This document shows positions 28,366-63,035 of a DNA stretch of 64,000 bases, one piece after another. Numbering within the stretch: position 1 is the stretch's first letter; every line of letters starts with the position of its first letter. The notes under the pieces were generated by a model, which was given only the letters and a program-made list of their open reading frames with translations, made no database searches and was not told the origin of the DNA. The DNA comes from Podarcis cretensis (lineage: Eukaryota): assembly GCA_951804945.1 (NCBI GenBank), contig OX638160.1, positions 41,354,001-41,418,000 of the forward strand, in the 5' to 3' direction. Position numbers and translations under genes: made by a program.

Positions 28366-31300
28366 TGTTGTTGTTTAGTCGTTTAGTCGTGTCCGACTCT
28401 TCGTGACCCCATGGACCAGAGAACGCCAGGCACTCCTGTCCTCCACTGCCCCCCGCAGCTTGGTCAGACTCATGCTGGTAACCTCGAAAACACTATCCAA
28501 CCATCTCGTCCTCTGTCGCCCCCTTCTCCTTGTGCCCTCCATCTTTCCCAACATCAGGGTCTTCTCCAGGGAGTCTTCTCTTCTCATGAGGTGGCCAAAG
28601 TACTGGAGCCTCAGCTTCACAATCTGTCCTTCCAGTGAGCACTCAGGGCTGATTTCCTTCAGAATGGAGAGGTTTGATCTTCTTGCAGTCCATGGGACTC
28701 TCAAGAGTCTCCTCCAGCACCATAATTCAAAAGCATCAATTCTTCGGCTATCAGCCTTCTTTATGGTCCAGCTCTCACTTCCATACATCACTACTGGGAA
28801 AACCATAGTTTTAACTATACGGACCTTTGTTGGCAAGGTGATGTCTCTACTTCTCAAGATGCTGTCTAGGCCTGTCATTGCCCTTCTCCCAAGAAGCAGG
28901 CGTCTTTTAATTTCGTGGCTGCTGTCACCATCTGCAGTGATCATGGAGCCCAAGAAAGTAAAATCTCTCACTGCCTCCATTTCTTCCCCTTCTATTTGCC
29001 AGGAGGTGATGGGACCAGTAGCCATGATCTTCGTTTTTTTGATGTTGAGCTTCAGACCATATTTTGCACTCTCCTCTTTCACCCTCAATAAAAGGTTCTT
29101 TAATTCCTCCTCACTTTCTGCCATCAAGGTTGTGTCATCTGCATATCTGAGGTTGTTGATATTTCTTCCGGCAATCTTAATTCCGGCTAGGGATTCATCC
29201 AGCCCAGCCTTTCGCATGATGAATTCTGCATATAAGTTAAATAAGCAGGGAGACAAAATGCAGCCTTGTCGTACTCCTTTCCCAATTTTGAACCAGTCAG
29301 TTGTTCCATATCCAGTTCTAACTGTAGCTTCTTGTCCCACATAGAGATTTCTCAGGAGACAGATGAGGTGATCAGGCACTCCCATTTCTTTAAGAACTTG
29401 CCATAGTTTGCCATGGTCGACACAGTCAAAGGCTTTTGCATAGTCAATGAAGCAGAAGTAAATGTCTTTCTGGAACTCTCTAGCTTTCTCCATAATCCAG
29501 CGCATGTTTGCAATTTGGTCTCTGGTTCCTCTGCCTCTTCTAAATCCAGCTTGCACTTCTGGGAGTTCTCGGTCCACATACTGCTTGAGCCTTCCTTGTA
29601 GAATTTTAAGCATAACCTTGCTAGCGTGAGAAATTAGTGCAATTGTGCGATAGTTGGAGCATTCTTTGGCACTGCCCTTCTTTGGGATTGGGATGTAGAC
29701 TGATCTTCTCCAATCTTCTGGCCACTGCTGAGTTTTCCAAACTTGCTGGCATATTGAGTGTAGCACCTTAACAGCATCATCTTTTAAAATTTTAAATAGT
29801 TCAGCTGGAATACCATCACTTCCACTGGCCTTGTTATTTGCAGTGCTTTCTAAGGCCCATTTGACTTCACTCTCCAGGATGTCTGGCTCAAGGTCAGCAA
29901 CCACACTACCTGGGGTATATGAGACATCCGTTTCTTTCTGGTATAATTCCTCTGTGTATTCTTGCCACCTCTTCTTGATGTCTTCTGCTTCTGTTAGGTC
30001 CTTTCCACTTTTGTCCTTTATTATGGAAATCTTTGTACGAAATGTTCCTTTCATATCTCCAATTTTCTTGAACAGATCTCTGGTTCTTCCCATTCTATTG
30101 CTTTCCTCTATTTCTTTGCATTGCTTGTTTAAGAAGGTCTTCTTGTCTCTCCTTGCTATTCTTTGGAAATCTGCATTCAATTTCCTGTATGTTTCACGAT
30201 CTCCCTTGCATTTTGCTTGCCTTCTCTCCCCCGCTATTTGTAAGGCCTCATTGGACAGCCACTTTGCTTTCTTGCATTTCCTTTTCATTGGGATGGTTTT
30301 CATTGCTGCCTCCTGTATAATGTTACGAGCCTCCACCCATAGTTCTTCAGGCACTCTGTCCACCAAATCTAAATCCTTAAACCTGTTCCTCACTTCCACT
30401 GTGTATTCATAAGGGATTTGACTTAGATTGTATCTTACCGGCCCAGTGGTTTTTCCTACTTTCTTCAGTTTAAGCTTGAATTTTGCTATAAGAAGCTGAT
30501 GATCTGAGCCACAGTCAGCTCCAGGTCTTGTTTTTGCTGACTGTATAGAGCTTCTCCATCTTTGGCTGCAGAGAATATAATCAATCTGATTTCGATGCTG
30601 CCCATCTGGTGATGTCCATGTGTAGAGTCGTCTCTTGTGTTGTTGGAAAAGCGTGTTTGTGATGACCAGCTTGTTCTCTTGACAGAACTCTATTAGCCTT
30701 TGCCCTGCTTCGTTTTGATCTCCAAGGCCAAACTTGCCAGTTGTTCCTTTTATCTCTTGACTCCCTACTTTAGCATTCCAATCCCCTATAATGAGAAGAA
30801 CATCCTTCTTTGGTGTCACTTCTATAAGGTGTTGTAAGTCTTCATAGAATTGGTCAATTTCAGTTTCTTCAGCACCAGTAGTTGGTGCATAAACTTGGAT
30901 TACTGTGATGTTAAAAGGTCTGCCTTGGATTCGTATCGAGATCATTCTATCATTTTTGAGATTGCATCCCAGTACAGCTTTTGCCACTCTTTTGTTGACT
31001 ATGAGGGCCACTCCATTTCTTTTACGGGTTTCTTGCCCACAGTAGTAGATATGATGGTCATCCGAACTGAATTCACCCATTCCCGTCCATTTTAGTTCAC
31101 TGATGCCCAGGATGTCAATATTTATTCTTGCCATCTCATTTTTGACCACCTCCAACTTACCCATGTTCATGGTTCTTACATTCCAGGTTCCTATGCAATA
31201 TTTTTCTTTACAGCATTGGACTTTCCTTTCGCTTCCAGGCATATCCGCAACTGAGCGTCCTTTCGGCTTTGGCCCAGCCGCTTCATCAGCTCTGGATCTA

Positions 31301-31581
31301 CTTGTACTTGCCCTCCGCTCTTCCCCAGTAGCATGTTGGACGCCTTCCGACCTGAGGGGCTCATCTTCCAGCGTCATAACTTTTATATGCCTGTTGTCTT
31401 TGTCCATGGAGTTTTCTTGGCAGGGATACTGGAGTGGCTTGCCGGTTCCTCCTCCAGGTGGATCACGTTTGGTCAAAACTCTCCACTATGACCTGTTCAT
31501 CTTGGGTGCCCTGCTCGGCATAGTTCATAGCTTCTCTGAGTTCTTCAAGCCCCTTCGCCACGGCAAGGCAGTGATCCATGA
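28366..31581 (-). mobile_element. Full-length BovB (RTE clade) LINE, ~3.2 kb
   Basis: Single long APE-RT ORF and BovB-like 5' region. 3' end GAAGAGTCGGACACGACTAAACGACTAA + (CAA)n tail. Perfect 9-bp TSD ATTTCTTAT at 28357-28365 and 31582-31590. Confidence 0.97.
28375..31407 (-). CDS. BovB endonuclease/reverse transcriptase ORF (1010 aa from first ATG; frame open from TTG at 31476)
   Basis: APE motifs GTWNVRTM, ILGISE, GDWNAKVG, IDYIL, SDH. RT motifs QGCILSPCLFNLY and YADD. RTE-type C-terminus (YFGHLMRR, W..LV). No stops or frameshifts. Confidence 0.96.
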   Translation of the reverse strand: MDKDNRHIKVMTLEDEPLRSEGVQHATGEERRASTSRSRADEAAGPKPKGRSVADMPGSERKVQCCKEKYCIGTWNVRTMNMGKLEVVKNEMARINIDILGISELKWTGMGEFSSDDHHIYYCGQETRKRNGVALIVNKRVAKAVLGCNLKNDRMISIRIQGRPFNITVIQVYAPTTGAEETEIDQFYEDLQHLIEVTPKKDVLLIIGDWNAKVGSQEIKGTTGKFGLGDQNEAGQRLIEFCQENKLVITNTLFQQHKRRLYTWTSPDGQHRNQIDYILCSQRWRSSIQSAKTRPGADCGSDHQLLIAKFKLKLKKVGKTTGPVRYNLSQIPYEYTVEVRNRFKDLDLVDRVPEELWVEARNIIQEAAMKTIPMKRKCKKAKWLSNEALQIAGERRQAKCKGDRETYRKLNADFQRIARRDKKTFLNKQCKEIEESNRMGRTRDLFKKIGDMKGTFRTKISIIKDKSGKDLTEAEDIKKRWQEYTEELYQKETDVSYTPGSVVADLEPDILESEVKWALESTANNKASGSDGIPAELFKILKDDAVKVLHSICQQVWKTQQWPEDWRRSVYIPIPKKGSAKECSNYRTIALISHASKVMLKILQGRLKQYVDRELPEVQAGFRRGRGTRDQIANMRWIMEKAREFQKDIYFCFIDYAKAFDCVDHGKLWQVLKEMGVPDHLICLLRNLYVGQEATVRTGYGTTDWFKIGKGVRQGCILSPCLFNLYAEFIMRKAGLDESLAGIKIAGRNINNLRYADDTTLMAESEEELKNLLLRVKEESAKYGLKLNIKKTKIMATGPITSWQIEGEEMEAVRDFTFLGSMITADGDSSHEIKRRLLLGRRAMTGLDSILRSRDITLPTKVRIVKTMVFPVVMYGSESWTIKKADSRRIDAFELWCWRRLLRVPWTARRSNLSILKEISPECSLEGQIVKLRLQYFGHLMRREDSLEKTLMLGKMEGTRRRGRQRTRWLDSVFEVTSMSLTKLRGAVEDRSAWRSLVHGVTKSRTRLND

Positions 31582-55402: not shown

Positions 55403-56009
55403 TAATTATTTTCCCCGCAATTCAGATTGAAGCTGGTTGGAGGTGGGGGGGTGGGGGAGGAATGCATCAAAATGTATTATTTCCTTAAAATAAATGAGAA
55501 GATACGATAGGTATGGATTGTGATAAAAGTTGTGTTGTCCGCCACTTCCCAAATCACTGGTGGGAACACAGTGGATTCAGAGCAAATAGGAATGTGTACA
55601 AGGCCTCATTCCATTTAAGTTTCTGCCACCAGACTTCCTCTCCCAGGTGCTGTCCCCTTGTGGAGAACCTCTGGCCTGCAGACAGTTACTGCTATGTTTC
55701 ATGACCTTCTCCAGTACATGCTCCCTGTGCTACTGGACCTTTAGAGGACTGTGAGAGATATTTTGTTTGTTGGGCTGAAGGGAAGACATCCATGAAGATC
55801 CTGGCTCTGGCTCCAGAGACCCAGGTGTTTTGGAAGGTTGTTCTGTGGGCTCCTCCCGTCAGTCAGGCTCAGTAGTCCCTCAGTCTCTAGCAGCAGGCTT
55901 AGAGCCCTAAAGTTGATGACTCTGCAGTCTCCAACACTTTTCCTCACTTCGGTATTAGCACCAGAGGATAAGGGATCATTTTTTTAAAGATTTTTTTTTC
56001 TTTACATAC

Positions 56010-56834
56010 TGTCAGAGCTGCCCGAGGTCCCAGCTCACAAAGGACCAACACCAGTTCGTTGTTATATACAAAAGTCTTTATTGAAGTTCAGTTTCGATTT
56101 CAAAGCCGTGGCGCGCAGCTCTACGTCTCAAACTCTAGACCGCTGAAGCTCCGTCTGAATCTCCTCCCCCCAGACACCAGTTTAAGACTCTAGCCTTGCT
56201 CCACCTCTTCCTTTGCTCTTTCCTCCTCTGGGTCCACCTGTCCGCTGGGGTCTTGCCCTTTCTAGACTCTTCTGACGCTGAGTCCCCTGAGTCTTCCCCC
56301 TGCCTCCGGTGGGCTTTAGGACCTGGTTCCCAATCCGGGTTTTCTGCTATCCCGCGCACCTGTACATTCGAACTTGGCGCGCGTGCCCAGCCGGCAACCT
56401 TTCTCTTGACCGTTACACTGCTCCTGTCACTGCTTCCCCCTTCGGGGAGGCTAGCTGGATCTGACTTCCCCTCCGTTCCCTCACTCTCCGATAGAGGCGT
56501 GGCCAGCCCTGACTCATCTTCTCTCCCTGCTGGAGGAGACGCTGGCCCTGATACATGGGCCTCTTCCCCCCCACTACGCTCTGGTGGGGGAGCTGGTCCT
56601 GATCTCCCGCTGCTGCTTTGGGAGTCCCCGCTGGCCCCTTGCTTCTGGTGCATCCCCCCTGGGATCCCCCTTGCCCTGGCCCTCGGCGCCCCTCTCTGGG
56701 AATCTTCTGATTCGTTGGAGAAGCTCATGGAATCTCTCGTGCCACTGTCATACTCCCCTACGCTGCCCTCAGATTCTTCCCCTTCGCTCTCCATTTCCTC
56801 TCTCCCCTGTGCCTCTGCTCCTGAGCCCCTGACA
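56010..56834 (-). mobile_element. Solo LTR (825 bp, Gypsy-like), containing a long ORF
   Basis: Inverted termini TGTCAG...CTGACA. Perfect 5-bp TSD CATAC (56005-56009, 56835-56839). Minus-strand AATAAA at 56082-56077 and TATA-like TTAAA at 56185-56181. GC- and CpG-rich, so probably young. Confidence 0.9.
56135..56794 (-). CDS. Hypothetical LTR-encoded 219-aa Ser/Gly/Glu-rich protein with basic C-terminus
   Basis: ATG in strong context (GAAATGG) at 56794. Open to TAG at 56135, entirely inside the LTR. No recognisable domain; coding status unproven. Confidence 0.35.
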   Translation of the reverse strand: MESEGEESEGSVGEYDSGTRDSMSFSNESEDSQRGAPRARARGIPGGMHQKQGASGDSQSSSGRSGPAPPPERSGGEEAHVSGPASPPAGREDESGLATPLSESEGTEGKSDPASLPEGGSSDRSSVTVKRKVAGWARAPSSNVQVRGIAENPDWEPGPKAHRRQGEDSGDSASEESRKGKTPADRWTQRRKEQRKRWSKARVLNWCLGGGDSDGASAV

Positions 56835-59028
56835 CATACATTAAAACATGGAAAACAAAGATAACTCTCCGGTGAAAAATCTATTAGCAAAATAATTTCA
56901 ATTTGCTTTTTCTTTCAGATCTGTTCAGTAAATAAACAATCCCTGTCTGCTATGACTGGTACAATGCCTATAGCTACACATAACAAAAAGAAAGTATTTT
57001 GTCTTCGGTGCCTTGTGGCAGATCATTAAAATTGTCCAGGGTGGGCTTTCGAACTTGGAGCAAATTCTATGCAGCATCTCTGCAGTCAGCAGGCATTCCC
57101 AACTTATACCTAAATCCAACAAGTTTAATCTATGTTTCAGCAATTTCTTTATGCTGGAAAGCACCTTAACGGAAGCCTAATTGTGTTAAAATATGCTGCA
57201 CTCATTTATTTAATTAAGTTCTATAAAAAGAGATGAGCACTAATCTATCACATATGTTATTTAATTAGCAATACATATCTTTTTCATAATCCTTTGTAAA
57301 AGAAACAGAGCACTTTCAGTGGCTTTTAAGCAGATTTATAAGCATCACCATTCAAATTCTAAGAAGTTATGCTGCAGTTACTATAATTTCTGCAACACCT
57401 ATATCTGTGCATGTGACCATCTTATTTCCCTTAGCCTCAGGATCCTAACGAAAACAACTGGAGTTGGTCTCAGTATGAAGAGAAAATGTAAAGTTGTCTG
57501 TGTTATATTCTTTTAAAATATTAAGGCTCCTATGCACTTACCTGGGAATACGCCTTATTAAAAACAATAGGACTTAATACTGAGTAGACATGCACAGGAT
57601 TGCACTATAAATTCACTACCTTAAAAGGACCCAAGGGGTTCAGCTGAAACTATAAAGTAGTACTTGTTGAATCGAAATAACTACAAAGAAGATCGCTTTA
57701 CAGACTTTGGGTGGAACTGAACATTGCACTATTTATGAACGTTCCATCTGTGCAAGCATTTCAGTTCACCAGATGGACCAGTTCCCCTTCTTCCCTGTGC
57801 ATTCACAGTTCTGGGGATTTCCTCAGACCCCAACAAGCCAATTTCAGAAGGCACAGCGGATGTGGGGGAAGCCCCATTACTCAAGCAGATTTCTTTGTGC
57901 TTTGGGCTTCTGCTGATGGAGCTCATTAACTGAATTCTGCCCATGGGCTTGGATCATAACTAGGCTTCCATGAGCAGAAAGGCTCCATCCATACTTTGTT
58001 TTAAATTTTAACTTTTGTATTTTTTAAAGTTAAAATGCTGAAATTGATTAAAATTACCTCAACTTTCTAAGCATTTGGGTAAGCTTGTCTAAACTAGAAT
58101 GTTTTTACCAGGCGCCAAAAAGAGTACTTTAGTATGGTTTACTCCTCCGTAAAGTGTAACATTCCACTTTGGCTATGCTGGGAACCCCTTTCCCTGGTGC
58201 ACATTCCCCCCCTTGTGAGGTTTTCAAGTGAAGTTCTTACATTCTTTCTAATGGACATCAGTACCTTAAAAATGATTTTAAGAGAAAAAGCAAGTAGGGG
58301 GGTCATTTTCTTTTCATGCTCCTAGAAACAGAAGCAGGAGAAAAAAGGCTCTTCTGTACAGTTCTGAAAACATCAAATGTAGCCTTGCTTCTCTCCTCCC
58401 ACTGGAAAATGTTGAAGGTAACTGGAACAAAAGCCTGGAAGCTACTGTTGTAATGAAGCTTTACTCTCTTGCTTAGGCTCTGTGGAGTGCTAATGCTAGC
58501 CCTGCTGAGTGTGCAAACTCCTTCCAAGGCCCTGTGGCTCATCTAAGCACAGTCAGTAAACTCTTCCAATATGCCTCACTAACCTCAGACTCTGTGGAAA
58601 AGCAAATACTTGCATCGTGCATGAGAGAATTCAGAAACTTCTCCCGAGGTTTGATTGAATTAAACTTCATTACCCAAGCCAATTGAGAGTAAGACACAGA
58701 TAAACTCGCTAAAAGTCCTTTGTGAAGATTTCTGTTAGCTGAAATACTGCCCTCCAAGCAAATATCCTATTAAAGACTGAACTGCAGATGAGAGTCATGT
58801 GGCTGTGAGAGCTAGCTCAGCGAGCCCTCGGCAATGGACGGACACATTCAAATGACTGTTATCTCAGCCATGTCGCCACCCTGCCCTTTATGCACCTCCC
58901 TTTGCTGCAGAGTGTAGTTGAAGCAGGGTGCCTCTATTTAACCATAGTTTCACATTTCACCTTCGCTAGTAAAATAGGGTTATCAGCATTGGAACAAGTC
59001 AAGATCCGAAACCAACTGCAAACTATTG

Positions 59029-60465: not shown

Positions 60466-62889
60466 TACACGTCTATTCAGAAGTGGTACAGATAAGTATA
60501 AATAGGACTGCAGTCTCCTCTGGGCTTGATGTTTTTCTGCAATAGAATTCACCTACATGGGGGGGAGAAAAACCTAATAGAATATTATGAACGTTATGCA
60601 AAACAAAGCTAAGGATTTTACCCTTTGGTGTATGTCATAGATATTTCCCCAAAATGGCTTCCATATATAGTACCCTTTTGGTACCAGGCTAAATCCACTG
60701 TCATCAACAGCTTTTCACAAATTGATTGATTATTGATCACTATGCTTATCGTTCTTCACTGACCTAAACATTTTACACTGCCATTCTCCTGCTGCCTCAG
60801 CATCTCTCTGACATTTCTATGGTTGCAAGCTCTCACGTGCAGCGACCCTTTCCTAAAGACACCTTATGGCCATTTAAAGATTTCAATTTTTTTCTGCAAT
60901 GGTGTGCATTTTTTTTTCCTTGGAGGAAAAAGTGCCTGGGTTGCAATTTAAACTTTCGATCTTTTTATCCATAAAATTTGAGGAAAATCTTAAGTCAGGT
61001 GCTTATGTTTTCCCTGATATGCCATATTGTTACATATTGTAGAAAACTGAAACAAGTTGAACAGCCATCTGCTAACTGCTTTAAACATATACGGTATGTT
61101 CCAAACCAAGCTTACATACACATAGCAGATGTGGATGCAGATGAGCAATGCTAACTTCCTTCTTCCATTAAGTCACTAACAGCCACCTACTTTGAGTGGG
61201 ACTTACTTCTTGGTAGACATGCAAAGGACTGTGCTGTAAAAGTTAACCTGTATGCTGCTGCTTTGGCTATATCCACAAATGGAATCTGACTTTCCTTTTT
61301 CTGTTTTGTTTTGGTTACTTCAAAGTAAGTAAACCATACATCTAAGTTACAGGGCTAAGTGATATGCTTCAATAATTTTCACCAGTATATCAATTATTTA
61401 GGTTTTTCCCATTTTCCTGGCAAATAATACTTGTTTCTTTAATTATTATTTTTGTAAAAAACCTACAAAACTAATTGCACCCAAGAAATTACTGTTTTGC
61501 TTGGTTTTGAATGAAGCAAGTGGGTGGTACTCAGTGTAGATCCACTGAAAACAATGAACATGACTAAGTTGGTTCCATTAATTTCATTCTGTCTACACGG
61601 AGTAGAACTTAGCTGAATACCATCCAGTGTTTTAAATTTTCAGTTTTTGCTTGGTCGAGAACTTTCTACCTCCATTTCCAGCTACAAAATGGAAACAGCA
61701 GCAACTCATTTCAAAGGATAACTGAGTGGATGAATAAAAGAAATTCTTATCTACCTGAATCTATAAAGAAAAGAAGGAATGGCTAACCAGGATCACAGAG
61801 AAATGTCTTGGTCCTGTTGCCAATCGGCCTTCCATGGGTGATCCTACAAGATCTCAGTATACATAGCATGGTCTCCCTCAGCGCATGTTTTAAAACTGGG
61901 ACTTTTTATTTTAAAAGAACCTTTTTTGCTTTCATTTTACAGAGAGTTACCTTATGAAATGTGTGGTCTCAATGAGAAATTATAATTATCAGTAATGTAA
62001 AACCAGGAGTTTTTCTTTCTGTTCCCAAAGTGTATGAAATAGCCAAGTGTTTAATTGTTGAATGTCCAGGAATGTTTGATAAGATACGATTTGCAGAGCA
62101 TAATGCTTCTCGGATTATCTATTAAAGCAGCAGCAATTGCTGCTCAGAAGGCAGTGGATGAGGATTTTGTGCAGAAGTGTCCAACTGTGCACAGTATAAT
62201 CATACTGGACTTTCTCTGCCCCTTGAACCCCACTTACTGAGTTTCTACAACATAGTGACTTCAAGACATGGTTACAGGGGCATTTAAGAACAAGGTAGCA
62301 TATTGAAGAATGTATAGTATAAGCACATTCAGTTCCTAAGATGAGAAACTGGTCAATAAAGTTATATGGCTGATAAGTGCCTTATGATATGGTTGTTCAG
62401 GAGGTGTAAGCTTTTGTGCCTAAGTGCACATCATTTAAACATTCAAAGATTGGACAGGGTTAAAGGTAAGTGACCCAAAATTCATCATGTTTACAATTTT
62501 CATAGAACTTGGCAACTAATCTAAGAGAAAACCAATGCAAAAAGCCTTTGTTTAACTGTGATGTTATTTACCTGCAAACAGATTTTGGATTGAATCGTAT
62601 TTTTAAAGTGGTGTTCACTGCAATAATTTTAAACCAAAGTCCAGCTTCACCTTTTGATTTTTCCACAGTAACACACTTTAGATTGCAGCTAGGGATAATG
62701 CCATTTTTCTCATGTTTTGCTCACCAAGTTCATTCCAATATTTTCAACCACATTATCCCCATTGTTCTTAATAAAAATATTTATATACAACTAGTTGGTT
62801 TTAAAAAAATCAAAGCAGTTTAAAACAAGAATATTTATAGACAATAAAAATCATGTGAAAACTTTAAAGCAGAAACCATCAACCAACTC

Positions 62890-63035
62890 ACTGTGGTGCA
62901 ATGGGTTAGTGCATCTCACTGTCAACTAGAAGGTTGGTGGTTCAAGCCCACCCAGGGATGGCTGTAGACAGGATACCTGCATTGCAGGGGCTGGACTACA
63001 CTACCCTTCCAATGATAAAATTCTATGATTCTATG
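62890..63035 (+). mobile_element. tRNA-derived SINE with CR1-type tail, degenerate
   Basis: tggtgcaatgggttag...ggttcaagccc head; cctgcattgcagggg...cccttcc...ttctatgattctatg tail. Confidence 0.7.

What the first reader, a model, noticed from the sequence alone, without database searches (positions are those of the whole stretch)
56010..56834. Solo LTR whose U3 region is one continuous ORF: candidate LTR-encoded accessory protein
Seen: TGTCAG...CTGACA termini and a perfect CATAC TSD define an 825-bp LTR. On its sense (minus) strand one frame is open from the LTR's 5' end to 56135, ~50 nt before the AATAAA. A strong-context ATG at 56794 gives 219 aa: acidic start (MESEGEESEGS), four imperfect S(G/D)(P/L)A(S/P/T)xP repeats, and a basic NLS-like tail (RWTQRRKEQRKRWSKAR). 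Known: a few retroviruses encode proteins overlapping the 3' LTR U3 (MMTV Sag, HIV Nef), but LTRs are normally non-coding. Inference: this lizard LTR-element family may carry an undescribed disordered nuclear accessory protein that persists in solo LTRs. Caveat: GC-rich, purine-skewed DNA is stop-poor, and an opposite-strand frame is also open.
Basis: partly seen in the sequence, partly recalled or inferred. Interest (0 to 1): 0.75.

Follow-up and report, generated by a model that had tools for sequence, protein, structure and literature searches.

The report
Integrase tail encoded inside retrotransposon LTR
The open reading frame in this lizard jumping-gene remnant is not a separate gene but the selected, in-frame last 232 codons of the element's pol (integrase) gene, which runs across almost the whole terminal repeat and would likely give integrase a floppy tail for nuclear entry or chromatin docking; the lone copy here is probably never translated.

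Summary
The 825-bp solo LTR (TG..CA, CATAC target duplication) and its open frame are real and beyond chance (shuffles p about 0.007). It belongs to a young, abundant Ty3/Gypsy chromovirus of the self-priming Tf1/sushi type. In full-length natural copies, and in Podarcis Pol proteins of about 1500 aa in UniRef, the pol frame runs unbroken from integrase through a degenerate chromodomain, an acidic linker and the polypurine tract into the 3' LTR, ending at this ORF's stop. The ORF is therefore the C-terminal tail of Pol, not a free accessory gene; the ATG at 56794 is not conserved. The frame is under purifying selection across subfamilies 15-17% apart (dN/dS about 0.3, about 0.5 against a private-variant baseline; only 3n indels; no shared stops). 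Other chromovirus families in the same genome also read pol across U3, ending in a basic segment. In a solo LTR the frame lies upstream of the predicted promoter and is likely silent. Pol running into the LTR is known in plant CRM chromoviruses; I found no open-access report for vertebrates. Function (nuclear import or tethering, as for Ty1 integrase's disordered tail) is inferred. New variant of a known kind; moderate interest.

The parts
56010..56834 (-). Solo LTR (825 bp) of a Ty3/Gypsy chromovirus, Tf1/sushi type; subfamily A of this report
   Evidence: Termini and TSD; 97% identical to the 3' LTR and 94.5% to the 5' LTR of a gag-pol element
56005..56009 (+). Target-site duplication CATAC, left copy
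56835..56839 (+). Target-site duplication CATAC, right copy
56135..56833 (-). Open frame of 232 codons plus stop: the LTR-encoded C-terminal tail of Pol/integrase (orphaned in this solo copy)
   Evidence: In frame with integrase in natural copies L047, L124, L125 and in UniRef Pol proteins; purifying selection
56792..56794 (-).
   Evidence: ATG in 42 of 49 A, 31 of 31 B, 34 of 35 C, 0 of 3 D copies; Thr in P0004, P0021, P0024, P0029
56174..56239 (-). Codons of the conserved basic C-terminal segment (R..R..R...RWS....L.WC), predicted helix, NLS-like
   Evidence: Invariant columns in alignment A2; only helix predicted in the tail, low confidence
56177..56187 (-). TATA-like element (CTTAAA) about 30 nt upstream of the predicted start of transcription, overlapping the last codons
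   Evidence: Same spacing in all 5' LTR copies examined; inferred, not mapped
56146..56156 (-). Predicted start of R and 11-nt self-primer, complementary to the primer-binding site that follows 5' LTRs
   Evidence: The 11-mer and the PBS change together in subfamilies A, B and C; predicted R-U5-PBS fold z = -2.9
56077..56082 (-). Polyadenylation signal AATAAA
56139..56864 (+). Antisense mirror frame; a by-product of the sense frame
   Evidence: Carries stops in the diverged copies and among shared and fixed variants

Best explanation
The frame is the in-frame 3' end of the pol gene of a Ty3/Gypsy chromovirus, kept open by selection, and would be translated from the 3' LTR of full-length RNA as a predicted disordered tail of integrase that likely helps nuclear entry or chromatin docking. 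Shown: gene order gag, then PR-RT-RH-IN-SH3-chromodomain-acidic linker-PPT-U3 in one frame; selection on that frame; self-priming complementarity. Inferred: transcription starts at about 56156 in the 5' LTR; Gag-Pol is made by a -1 shift at a GGGAAAC heptamer followed by a stem-loop; ribosomes run through the polypurine tract and all of U3 and stop about 20 nt into R; protease releases an integrase carrying about 150 aa of linker and 232 aa of LTR-coded acidic, serine-rich tail that ends in a basic helix. U3 thus does three jobs (promoter, coding sequence, and, at its end, self-primer). A solo LTR, left by LTR-LTR recombination, keeps the frame but has its promoter downstream of it, so the copy in this window is likely a silent remnant that is open because it is young.
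For: Unbroken natural frames from RNase H or integrase to this stop: L124 1055 aa, L125 987 aa (with an internal deletion), L126 803 aa (junction altered), L047. UniRef Podarcis muralis proteins with RT, RH, IN and the tail at 53-54% identity, 3 of 3 hits among longer proteins; three more of about 1500 aa; a 415-aa Logan protein spanning chromodomain to tail. dN/dS 0.27-0.32 between subfamilies in this frame against 0.81-1.71 in the other two sense frames; stops 7 of 312 private variants, 0 of 140 shared, 0 among fixed differences. Between-subfamily differences at codon positions 1/2/3 = 39/36/75, private variants 105/115/128 (p = 0.008); subfamily-level indels inside the frame are -3, -63, +6, outside it +1 and -1. 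Synonymous rate in the tail (0.39-0.56) is not lower than in the integrase core (0.39-0.44), so the constraint is on protein. In 7 of 12 loci of other chromovirus families pol runs 68-118 codons into the LTR, 2 stop near its start, 3 were uninformative. AlphaFold: chromodomain folded, tail unstructured except a C-terminal helix; all listed top fold matches are chromodomains, weak E-values. Precedents: PMC3059260, PMC3605345, PMC8487063.
Against: Only 16 of 36 junctions in this assembly are in frame (p = 0.11 against one third), the rest being off by 1-2 nt in G runs; the same happens in 18 of 28 copies at a G run upstream of the conserved chromodomain, so it looks like decay or homopolymer error, but this is not proven. 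Against the private-variant baseline the constraint is weaker (N/S 1.2 versus 2.2, about 0.5) and the antisense mirror frame gives a similar ratio (0.37-0.43). Subfamily C copies were mostly found by a protein search, which favours open frames. The last 30 codons overlap promoter and primer signals, so part of their conservation may be at the DNA level. No protein, ribosome or transcript evidence; the function of the tail is by analogy only. UniRef entries are automatic gene models.
Confidence: 0.85

Rival explanations
1. The U3 frame also, or mainly, gives a stand-alone protein, from a spliced or internally started RNA, from the ATG in the polypurine tract or at 56794, or after protease cleavage from Pol.
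For: Strong context at 56794; ATG kept in 107 of 115 A, B and C copies; an M-D-V-R start at the LTR edge in all relatives; 20 of 36 junctions out of frame; separate Logan gene calls for the tail alone, which solo LTRs would also give.
Against: ATG lost in subfamily D, in 7 A copies and in Podarcis Pol proteins; the 13 codons before it are conserved and in frame with pol; other families have V, not M, at the LTR edge; the sequence before the LTR edge is purine-rich, not a splice acceptor.
Confidence: 0.15
2. Slippage in the G runs of the polypurine region is a real, tolerated or used switch, so that elements come in long-tail and short-tail forms.
For: 20 of 36 junctions out of frame here; in an unrelated family chosen only by its chromodomain, 14 of 26 read a long tail and 11 stop soon after the junction.
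Against: Out-of-frame junctions are scattered over many run patterns, whereas the commonest single pattern (10 of 36) is in frame and in-frame junctions occur in all four subfamilies; a G run inside pol is hit as often (18 of 28); short-read contigs of four runs laid on an in-frame copy list no 1-2 nt indel at the junction at 5% or more although they do list that copy's own single-G loss elsewhere (contigs drop rare variants).
Confidence: 0.07
3. The frame is open only because G/A-rich DNA is poor in stops and promoter constraints mimic selection.
For: Shuffles of this composition give long frames (mean 115-136 codons, maximum 275); the mirror frame is open in the window copy.
Against: Third-position excess, 3n-only indels, no shared stops, fusion to pol, and the same design in several families.
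Confidence: 0.03

Closest known systems
Tf1/sushi group of chromoviruses (Metaviridae; vertebrate V-clade: sushi-ichi, Amn-ichi/ni/san)
   Same: gag with capsid and CCHC knuckle, PR-RT-RH-IN order, GPY motif, chromodomain, no env, 11-nt self-priming instead of a tRNA PBS (PMC6317226 and PMC4600332 passages); Gag's best solved match is PEG10, Pol's is Ty3.
   Different: Pol continues about 380 aa past the chromodomain, 232 of them across U3; the chromodomain is degenerate (below Pfam's cut-off). I did not see this described for vertebrate members in the papers I could search.
Plant CRM chromoviruses, group A (CR motif / putative targeting domain), and beet Bingo elements
   Same: [quoted passage not shown]
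   Different: CRM elements use tRNA-Met, have the CR motif in place of a chromodomain and are centromeric; here a chromodomain is kept upstream of the PPT, the LTR part is a long acidic-then-basic tail covering all of U3, priming is by self-primer, and solo LTRs are spread along chromosomes.
Ty1 integrase C-terminal module
   Same: Large intrinsically disordered integrase C-terminus (PMC8487063 abstract) with a short host-tethering segment (PMC10050235, search listing) and CK2 phosphorylation (PMC9673352 abstract); its bipartite NLS is recalled.
   Different: Ty1 is a copia element, its tail is internal to pol, not in the LTR, and no sequence likeness was found; a functional analogy only.
MMTV Sag, HIV Nef (retroviral ORFs overlapping U3; recalled)
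   Same: Coding sequence overlapping the 3' LTR U3.
   Different: Those are separate proteins from their own spliced RNAs; this one is the end of pol in a retrotransposon without env.

Membership tests
Ty3/Gypsy (Metaviridae) | gag, then PR-RT-RH-IN order between two LTRs, no env | tested here: met
   Pfam on L031: Retrotrans_gag, Ty3_capsid, RVP_2 (weak), RVT_1, RT_RNaseH, Integrase_H2C2, rve, SH3_Tf2-1; best PDB match Ty3 Gag-Pol E 1e-132
Chromovirus | Chromodomain at the integrase C-terminus | tested here: met
   Pfam Chromo E 1e-4, 22.7 bits, under the 25.1 cut-off; confident local model and chromodomain fold matches with weak E-values; dN/dS 0.05-0.20. Degenerate: aromatic positions partly lost (read from sequence)
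Tf1/sushi group | Self-priming: PBS complementary to the 5' end of the RNA | tested here: met
   11-nt complement, changing together in three subfamilies (B rests on one 5' LTR); fold z = -2.9
Tf1/sushi group | Placement in the V-clade by an RT tree | not tested
   No reference sushi or Amn sequences were fetched; only best matches to Ty3 Pol and PEG10 Gag
CRM group A centromeric retrotransposons | Polyprotein frame extends into the 3' LTR | tested here: met
CRM group A centromeric retrotransposons | tRNA-Met PBS; CR motif replacing the chromodomain | tested here: not met
   Self-priming PBS; chromodomain present upstream of the PPT
CRM group A centromeric retrotransposons | Insertions concentrated at centromeres | tested here: inconclusive
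   Copies with internal sequence: 16 of 40 within 1 Mb of a contig end (2.5% expected); LTR hits: 3 of 40 and 4 of 40. Centromeres are not mapped here
Retroviral U3 accessory genes (Sag, Nef) | Frame separate from pol, with its own conserved start | tested here: not met
   In frame with pol; ATG not conserved
Retroviral U3 accessory genes (Sag, Nef) | Spliced subgenomic RNA | not testable with these tools
   No RNA holder on record; only contigs could be laid

The most novel reading that the evidence does not exclude
Lizard (perhaps all vertebrate) sushi-type chromoviruses use their entire U3 as the gene for an unrecognised integrase module, an acidic disordered arm ending in a basic helix, that has grown from about 70 to 232 residues as the chromodomain decayed and now does the nuclear import and target choice; thousands of solo LTRs scatter this ready-made 219-codon frame through the genome, where host transcripts could pick it up.
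Probability: 0.3. Interest if true: 0.65.

Novelty: new variant of a known kind. Interest (0 to 1): 0.4.

Why it matters
LTRs are treated as non-coding and neutral when elements are dated and annotated. Here two thirds to four fifths of the LTR is protein-coding and under selection in several abundant vertebrate families, and its last 60 bases are at once codons, promoter and primer. It points to a testable integrase module in vertebrate chromoviruses, relatives of the ancestors of PEG10 and RTL1, parallel to the LTR-coded targeting domain of plant centromeric elements. For this window the locus itself is an ordinary solo LTR.

Tried and rejected
Pfam found no family for either the sense or the antisense frame; the ESM Atlas gave no usable hit; neither shows novelty. 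DNA-level repeats inside the LTR are weak two-copy matches, and the four peptide repeats are not conserved. Non-autonomous DNA element (MITE) rejected: full gag-pol copies with two LTRs exist. ERV rejected: no env, Ty3-type Pol, self-priming. Antisense frame as the gene rejected: stops in diverged copies. Expression: no RNA holder listed; two runs guessed to be RNA, from another organism, gave contigs over all 30 bins and no convincing splice joint; this is no evidence either way. Strict targeting to chromosome ends is not supported because LTR hits are dispersed; the excess of full-length copies at contig ends may reflect low recombination. In one search the 60-nt windows at the junction straddle a boundary and were not used; the 16 of 36 count was. 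Earlier findings of the scan: none by sequence or place; two by words, in other genomes. No complex prediction was run, as there is no candidate partner.

Full report
Observation. The window holds an 825-bp element at 56010-56834 with TGTCAG...CTGACA ends and a CATAC duplication. On the minus strand a frame is open from LTR base 2 to a TAG ending at 56135: 232 codons, 219 from the ATG at 56794. Such a run arose in 0.7% of 2000 dinucleotide shuffles in three frames and 1.7% in six. The own genome gave 4273 first-look candidates, of which 40 were scored, at 97-100% identity; 28 of the 30 fetched carry a 5-bp duplication. Pfam knows neither the sense nor the antisense frame.

What element it is. 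One copy without a duplication (L018) is the 3' LTR of a full element: 5' LTR, gag (Retrotrans_gag, Ty3_capsid, CCHC), PR-RT-RH-IN-SH3, polypurine tract, 3' LTR. This fixes the minus strand as sense. Pol of a close relative matches Ty3 best among solved structures (E 1e-132) and Gag matches PEG10. The sequence after the 5' LTR is not tRNA-like but complements an 11-mer inside the LTR; the 11-mer and the PBS differ between subfamilies A, B and C and differ together (B rests on one copy), and the R-U5-PBS region folds with this duplex closing it (z = -2.9). That is the Tf1/sushi self-priming design (PMC6317226 and PMC4600332, passages read) and puts the predicted RNA start at window 56156, about 30 nt after a CTTAAA box and 75 nt before AATAAA. 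gag and pol overlap in the -1 relation with GGGAAAC followed by a 10-bp stem (z only -1.3; likeness to the PEG10 signal is recalled). The frame therefore covers all of U3 (678 nt) and ends about 20 nt into R.

The frame is the end of pol. In natural copy L047 the integrase frame runs without a break through the SH3 domain, a chromodomain-like domain, about 150 acidic residues and the polypurine tract into the LTR frame and stops at the same codon. L124 (1055 aa from RNase H), L125 (987 aa, internal deletion) and L126 (803 aa, junction altered) do the same in subfamily C. A search among longer proteins returned 3 hits, all Podarcis muralis Gypsy Pol models with the tail at 53-54% identity; in P0004 the LTR frame aligns to residues 1290-1498 of 1498. 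Three of the four further cluster members I read are 1503-1506 aa with the same junction and tail; the fourth ends at the LTR edge. Against this: only 16 of 36 distinct junctions in the assembly are in frame (p = 0.11 against one third); the others are off by 1-2 nt in G runs. The commonest single pattern (10 of 36) is in frame, in-frame junctions occur in all four subfamilies, and a G run upstream of the conserved chromodomain shifts the frame in 18 of 28 copies, so G runs break these copies wherever they occur. Short-read contigs of four public runs laid on L047 list no 1-2 nt indel at the junction at the 5% level, while they do list L047's own single-base loss inside integrase; contigs lose rare variants, so this is moderate support.

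Selection. 121 distinct full-length LTR copies fell into subfamilies A (49), B (31), C (35), D (3) and three singletons; A, B and C are 15.5-17.3% apart. They are the best-scoring hits of five searches and their neighbours, not a random sample, and most C copies came from a protein search that favours open frames. The frame is open to its usual end in 29 of 49 A, 30 of 31 B, 28 of 35 C and 1 of 3 D copies. Between subfamilies dN/dS is 0.27-0.32 in this frame, 0.81-1.71 in the other sense frames, 1.1-1.9 in two antisense frames and 0.37-0.43 in the antisense frame that shares third positions. Private variants include 7 stops in 312; variants shared by three or more copies include 0 in 140, and fixed differences none; the mirror frame has 2 shared and 2 fixed stops. 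N/S is 2.2 for private and 1.2 for fixed changes (p = 0.004), i.e. about 0.5 on that baseline. Fixed differences fall on codon positions 39/36/75, private ones 105/115/128; subfamily-level indels are -3, -63 and +6 inside the frame and +1 and -1 after it. Against one C copy, six A or D copies give omega 0.09-0.11 for the integrase core, 0.05-0.20 for the chromodomain, 0.20-0.29 for the linker and 0.22-0.29 for the LTR tail, with similar dS throughout. The tail is constrained like the linker, as expected for one disordered extension.

Generality. A profile-free search of 1.84 billion representatives with the chromodomain-to-tail region gave 10 hits; two distant ones (P0012, P0015) show the same plan with a different sequence. 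In the own genome, of 12 loci of other chromovirus families, 7 read pol 68-118 codons into the 3' LTR (among them 1351-, 1333- and 1544-aa frames between 99% identical LTRs, the last with a canonical chromodomain), 2 stop within 11 codons of the LTR edge and 3 were uninformative; in the 1333-1351-aa families the stop again falls about 25 nt past the self-primer and the tail ends in an arginine run and LLCW. Of 30 loci picked only by Pfam Chromo, 26 could be read: 14 have a long tail, 11 a short one, 1 breaks in the chromodomain.

The protein. The tail is 16% Ser, 15% Gly, 17% Asp+Glu, acidic at the start and basic at the end. Conserved blocks across eight relatives are R/K-K-V, SSN, PG.KA.R, SAS.ESR and R...R....RWS....L.WC; the four repeats are not conserved and the fourth is deleted in several. 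AlphaFold on a 7-row alignment folds the chromodomain with confidence and leaves linker and tail unstructured but for a low-confidence helix at the basic end; top fold matches are chromodomains with E 0.007 or weaker.

How it most likely works. Shown: one frame from integrase to this stop, selection on it, self-priming complementarity. Inferred: the tail is made as part of Gag-Pol from the 3' LTR, stays on integrase, and supplies nuclear import or chromatin tethering, as the disordered C-terminal half of Ty1 integrase does (PMC8487063 abstract and opening; PMC9673352 abstract; PMC10050235 search listing only). I put the Pol-tail reading at 0.85 and the import or tethering role at about 0.5. 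Copies with internal sequence lie near contig ends (16 of 40 within 1 Mb; 2.5% expected) but LTR hits hardly do (3 of 40, 4 of 40), which fits retention of full copies in low-recombination regions better than strict targeting. In a solo LTR the promoter lies downstream of the frame, so translation would need a host transcript reading in; none was shown.

What is known. A polyprotein frame extending into the 3' LTR, coding the integrase's putative targeting domain, defines plant CRM group A and occurs in some beet Bingo elements (PMC3059260, PMC3605345, passages read). The present element is not a CRM member (self-priming, chromodomain kept). Searches of the open-access library found no report for vertebrate chromoviruses; PMC3601003, PMC2864245 and PMC6317226 (passages) do not mention it. 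The two key papers on vertebrate members (Butler 2001, Gorinsek 2004) were seen only as reference entries, repeat databases were not available, and no supplements were read, so prior note of the read-through cannot be excluded; UniRef already holds the tail inside automatically named Pol entries. Sag and Nef comparisons are recalled.

Verdict. Observation confirmed; interpretation partly supported. A new variant of a known kind: interest 0.4.

Noticed in passing
window 28375-31485 (-): Unbroken 1036-codon endonuclease plus reverse-transcriptase frame of an RTE/Bov-B-like LINE (family name from my reading of the translation); its 3' end also occurs in L031.
   Followed up: no
window 62887-62960 (+): tRNA-Asp(GTC) called by ARAGORN; could be a gene or a SINE head.
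   Followed up: no
L001-L030 flanks: Target duplications are rich in alternating purine-pyrimidine words (CATAC, GTATG, ATATA, GCATG, ACGTG), several inside TA or TAT microsatellites: a possible target preference.
   Followed up: no
G000 contig ends, e.g. C1:141.2-141.4 Mb, C12:0.08-0.09 Mb, C14:0.1-0.5 Mb, C16:44-45 Mb: Full-length copies cluster and nest within 1 Mb of contig ends (16 of 40) while solo LTRs are dispersed.
   Followed up: partly
L031:7399-7879: A partial (482-nt) LTR copy lies head to tail directly before the 5' LTR of the full element.
   Followed up: no
L031:5467-5420 (-): GGGAAAC heptamer plus 10-bp stem at the gag-pol overlap, a PEG10-like -1 frameshift signal.
   Followed up: partly
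L189, L190, L194, L191: At least three further young chromovirus families with near-identical LTR pairs and unbroken pol frames of 1333-1544 codons in this genome; one keeps a canonical chromodomain, the others degenerate ones.
   Followed up: partly
L124 pol residues about 700-760; L189 linker: The acidic linker after the chromodomain carries short conserved aromatic-acidic motifs (F.GF, YWW or W...F), repeated twice in the 1351-aa family: candidate short linear binding motifs.
   Followed up: no
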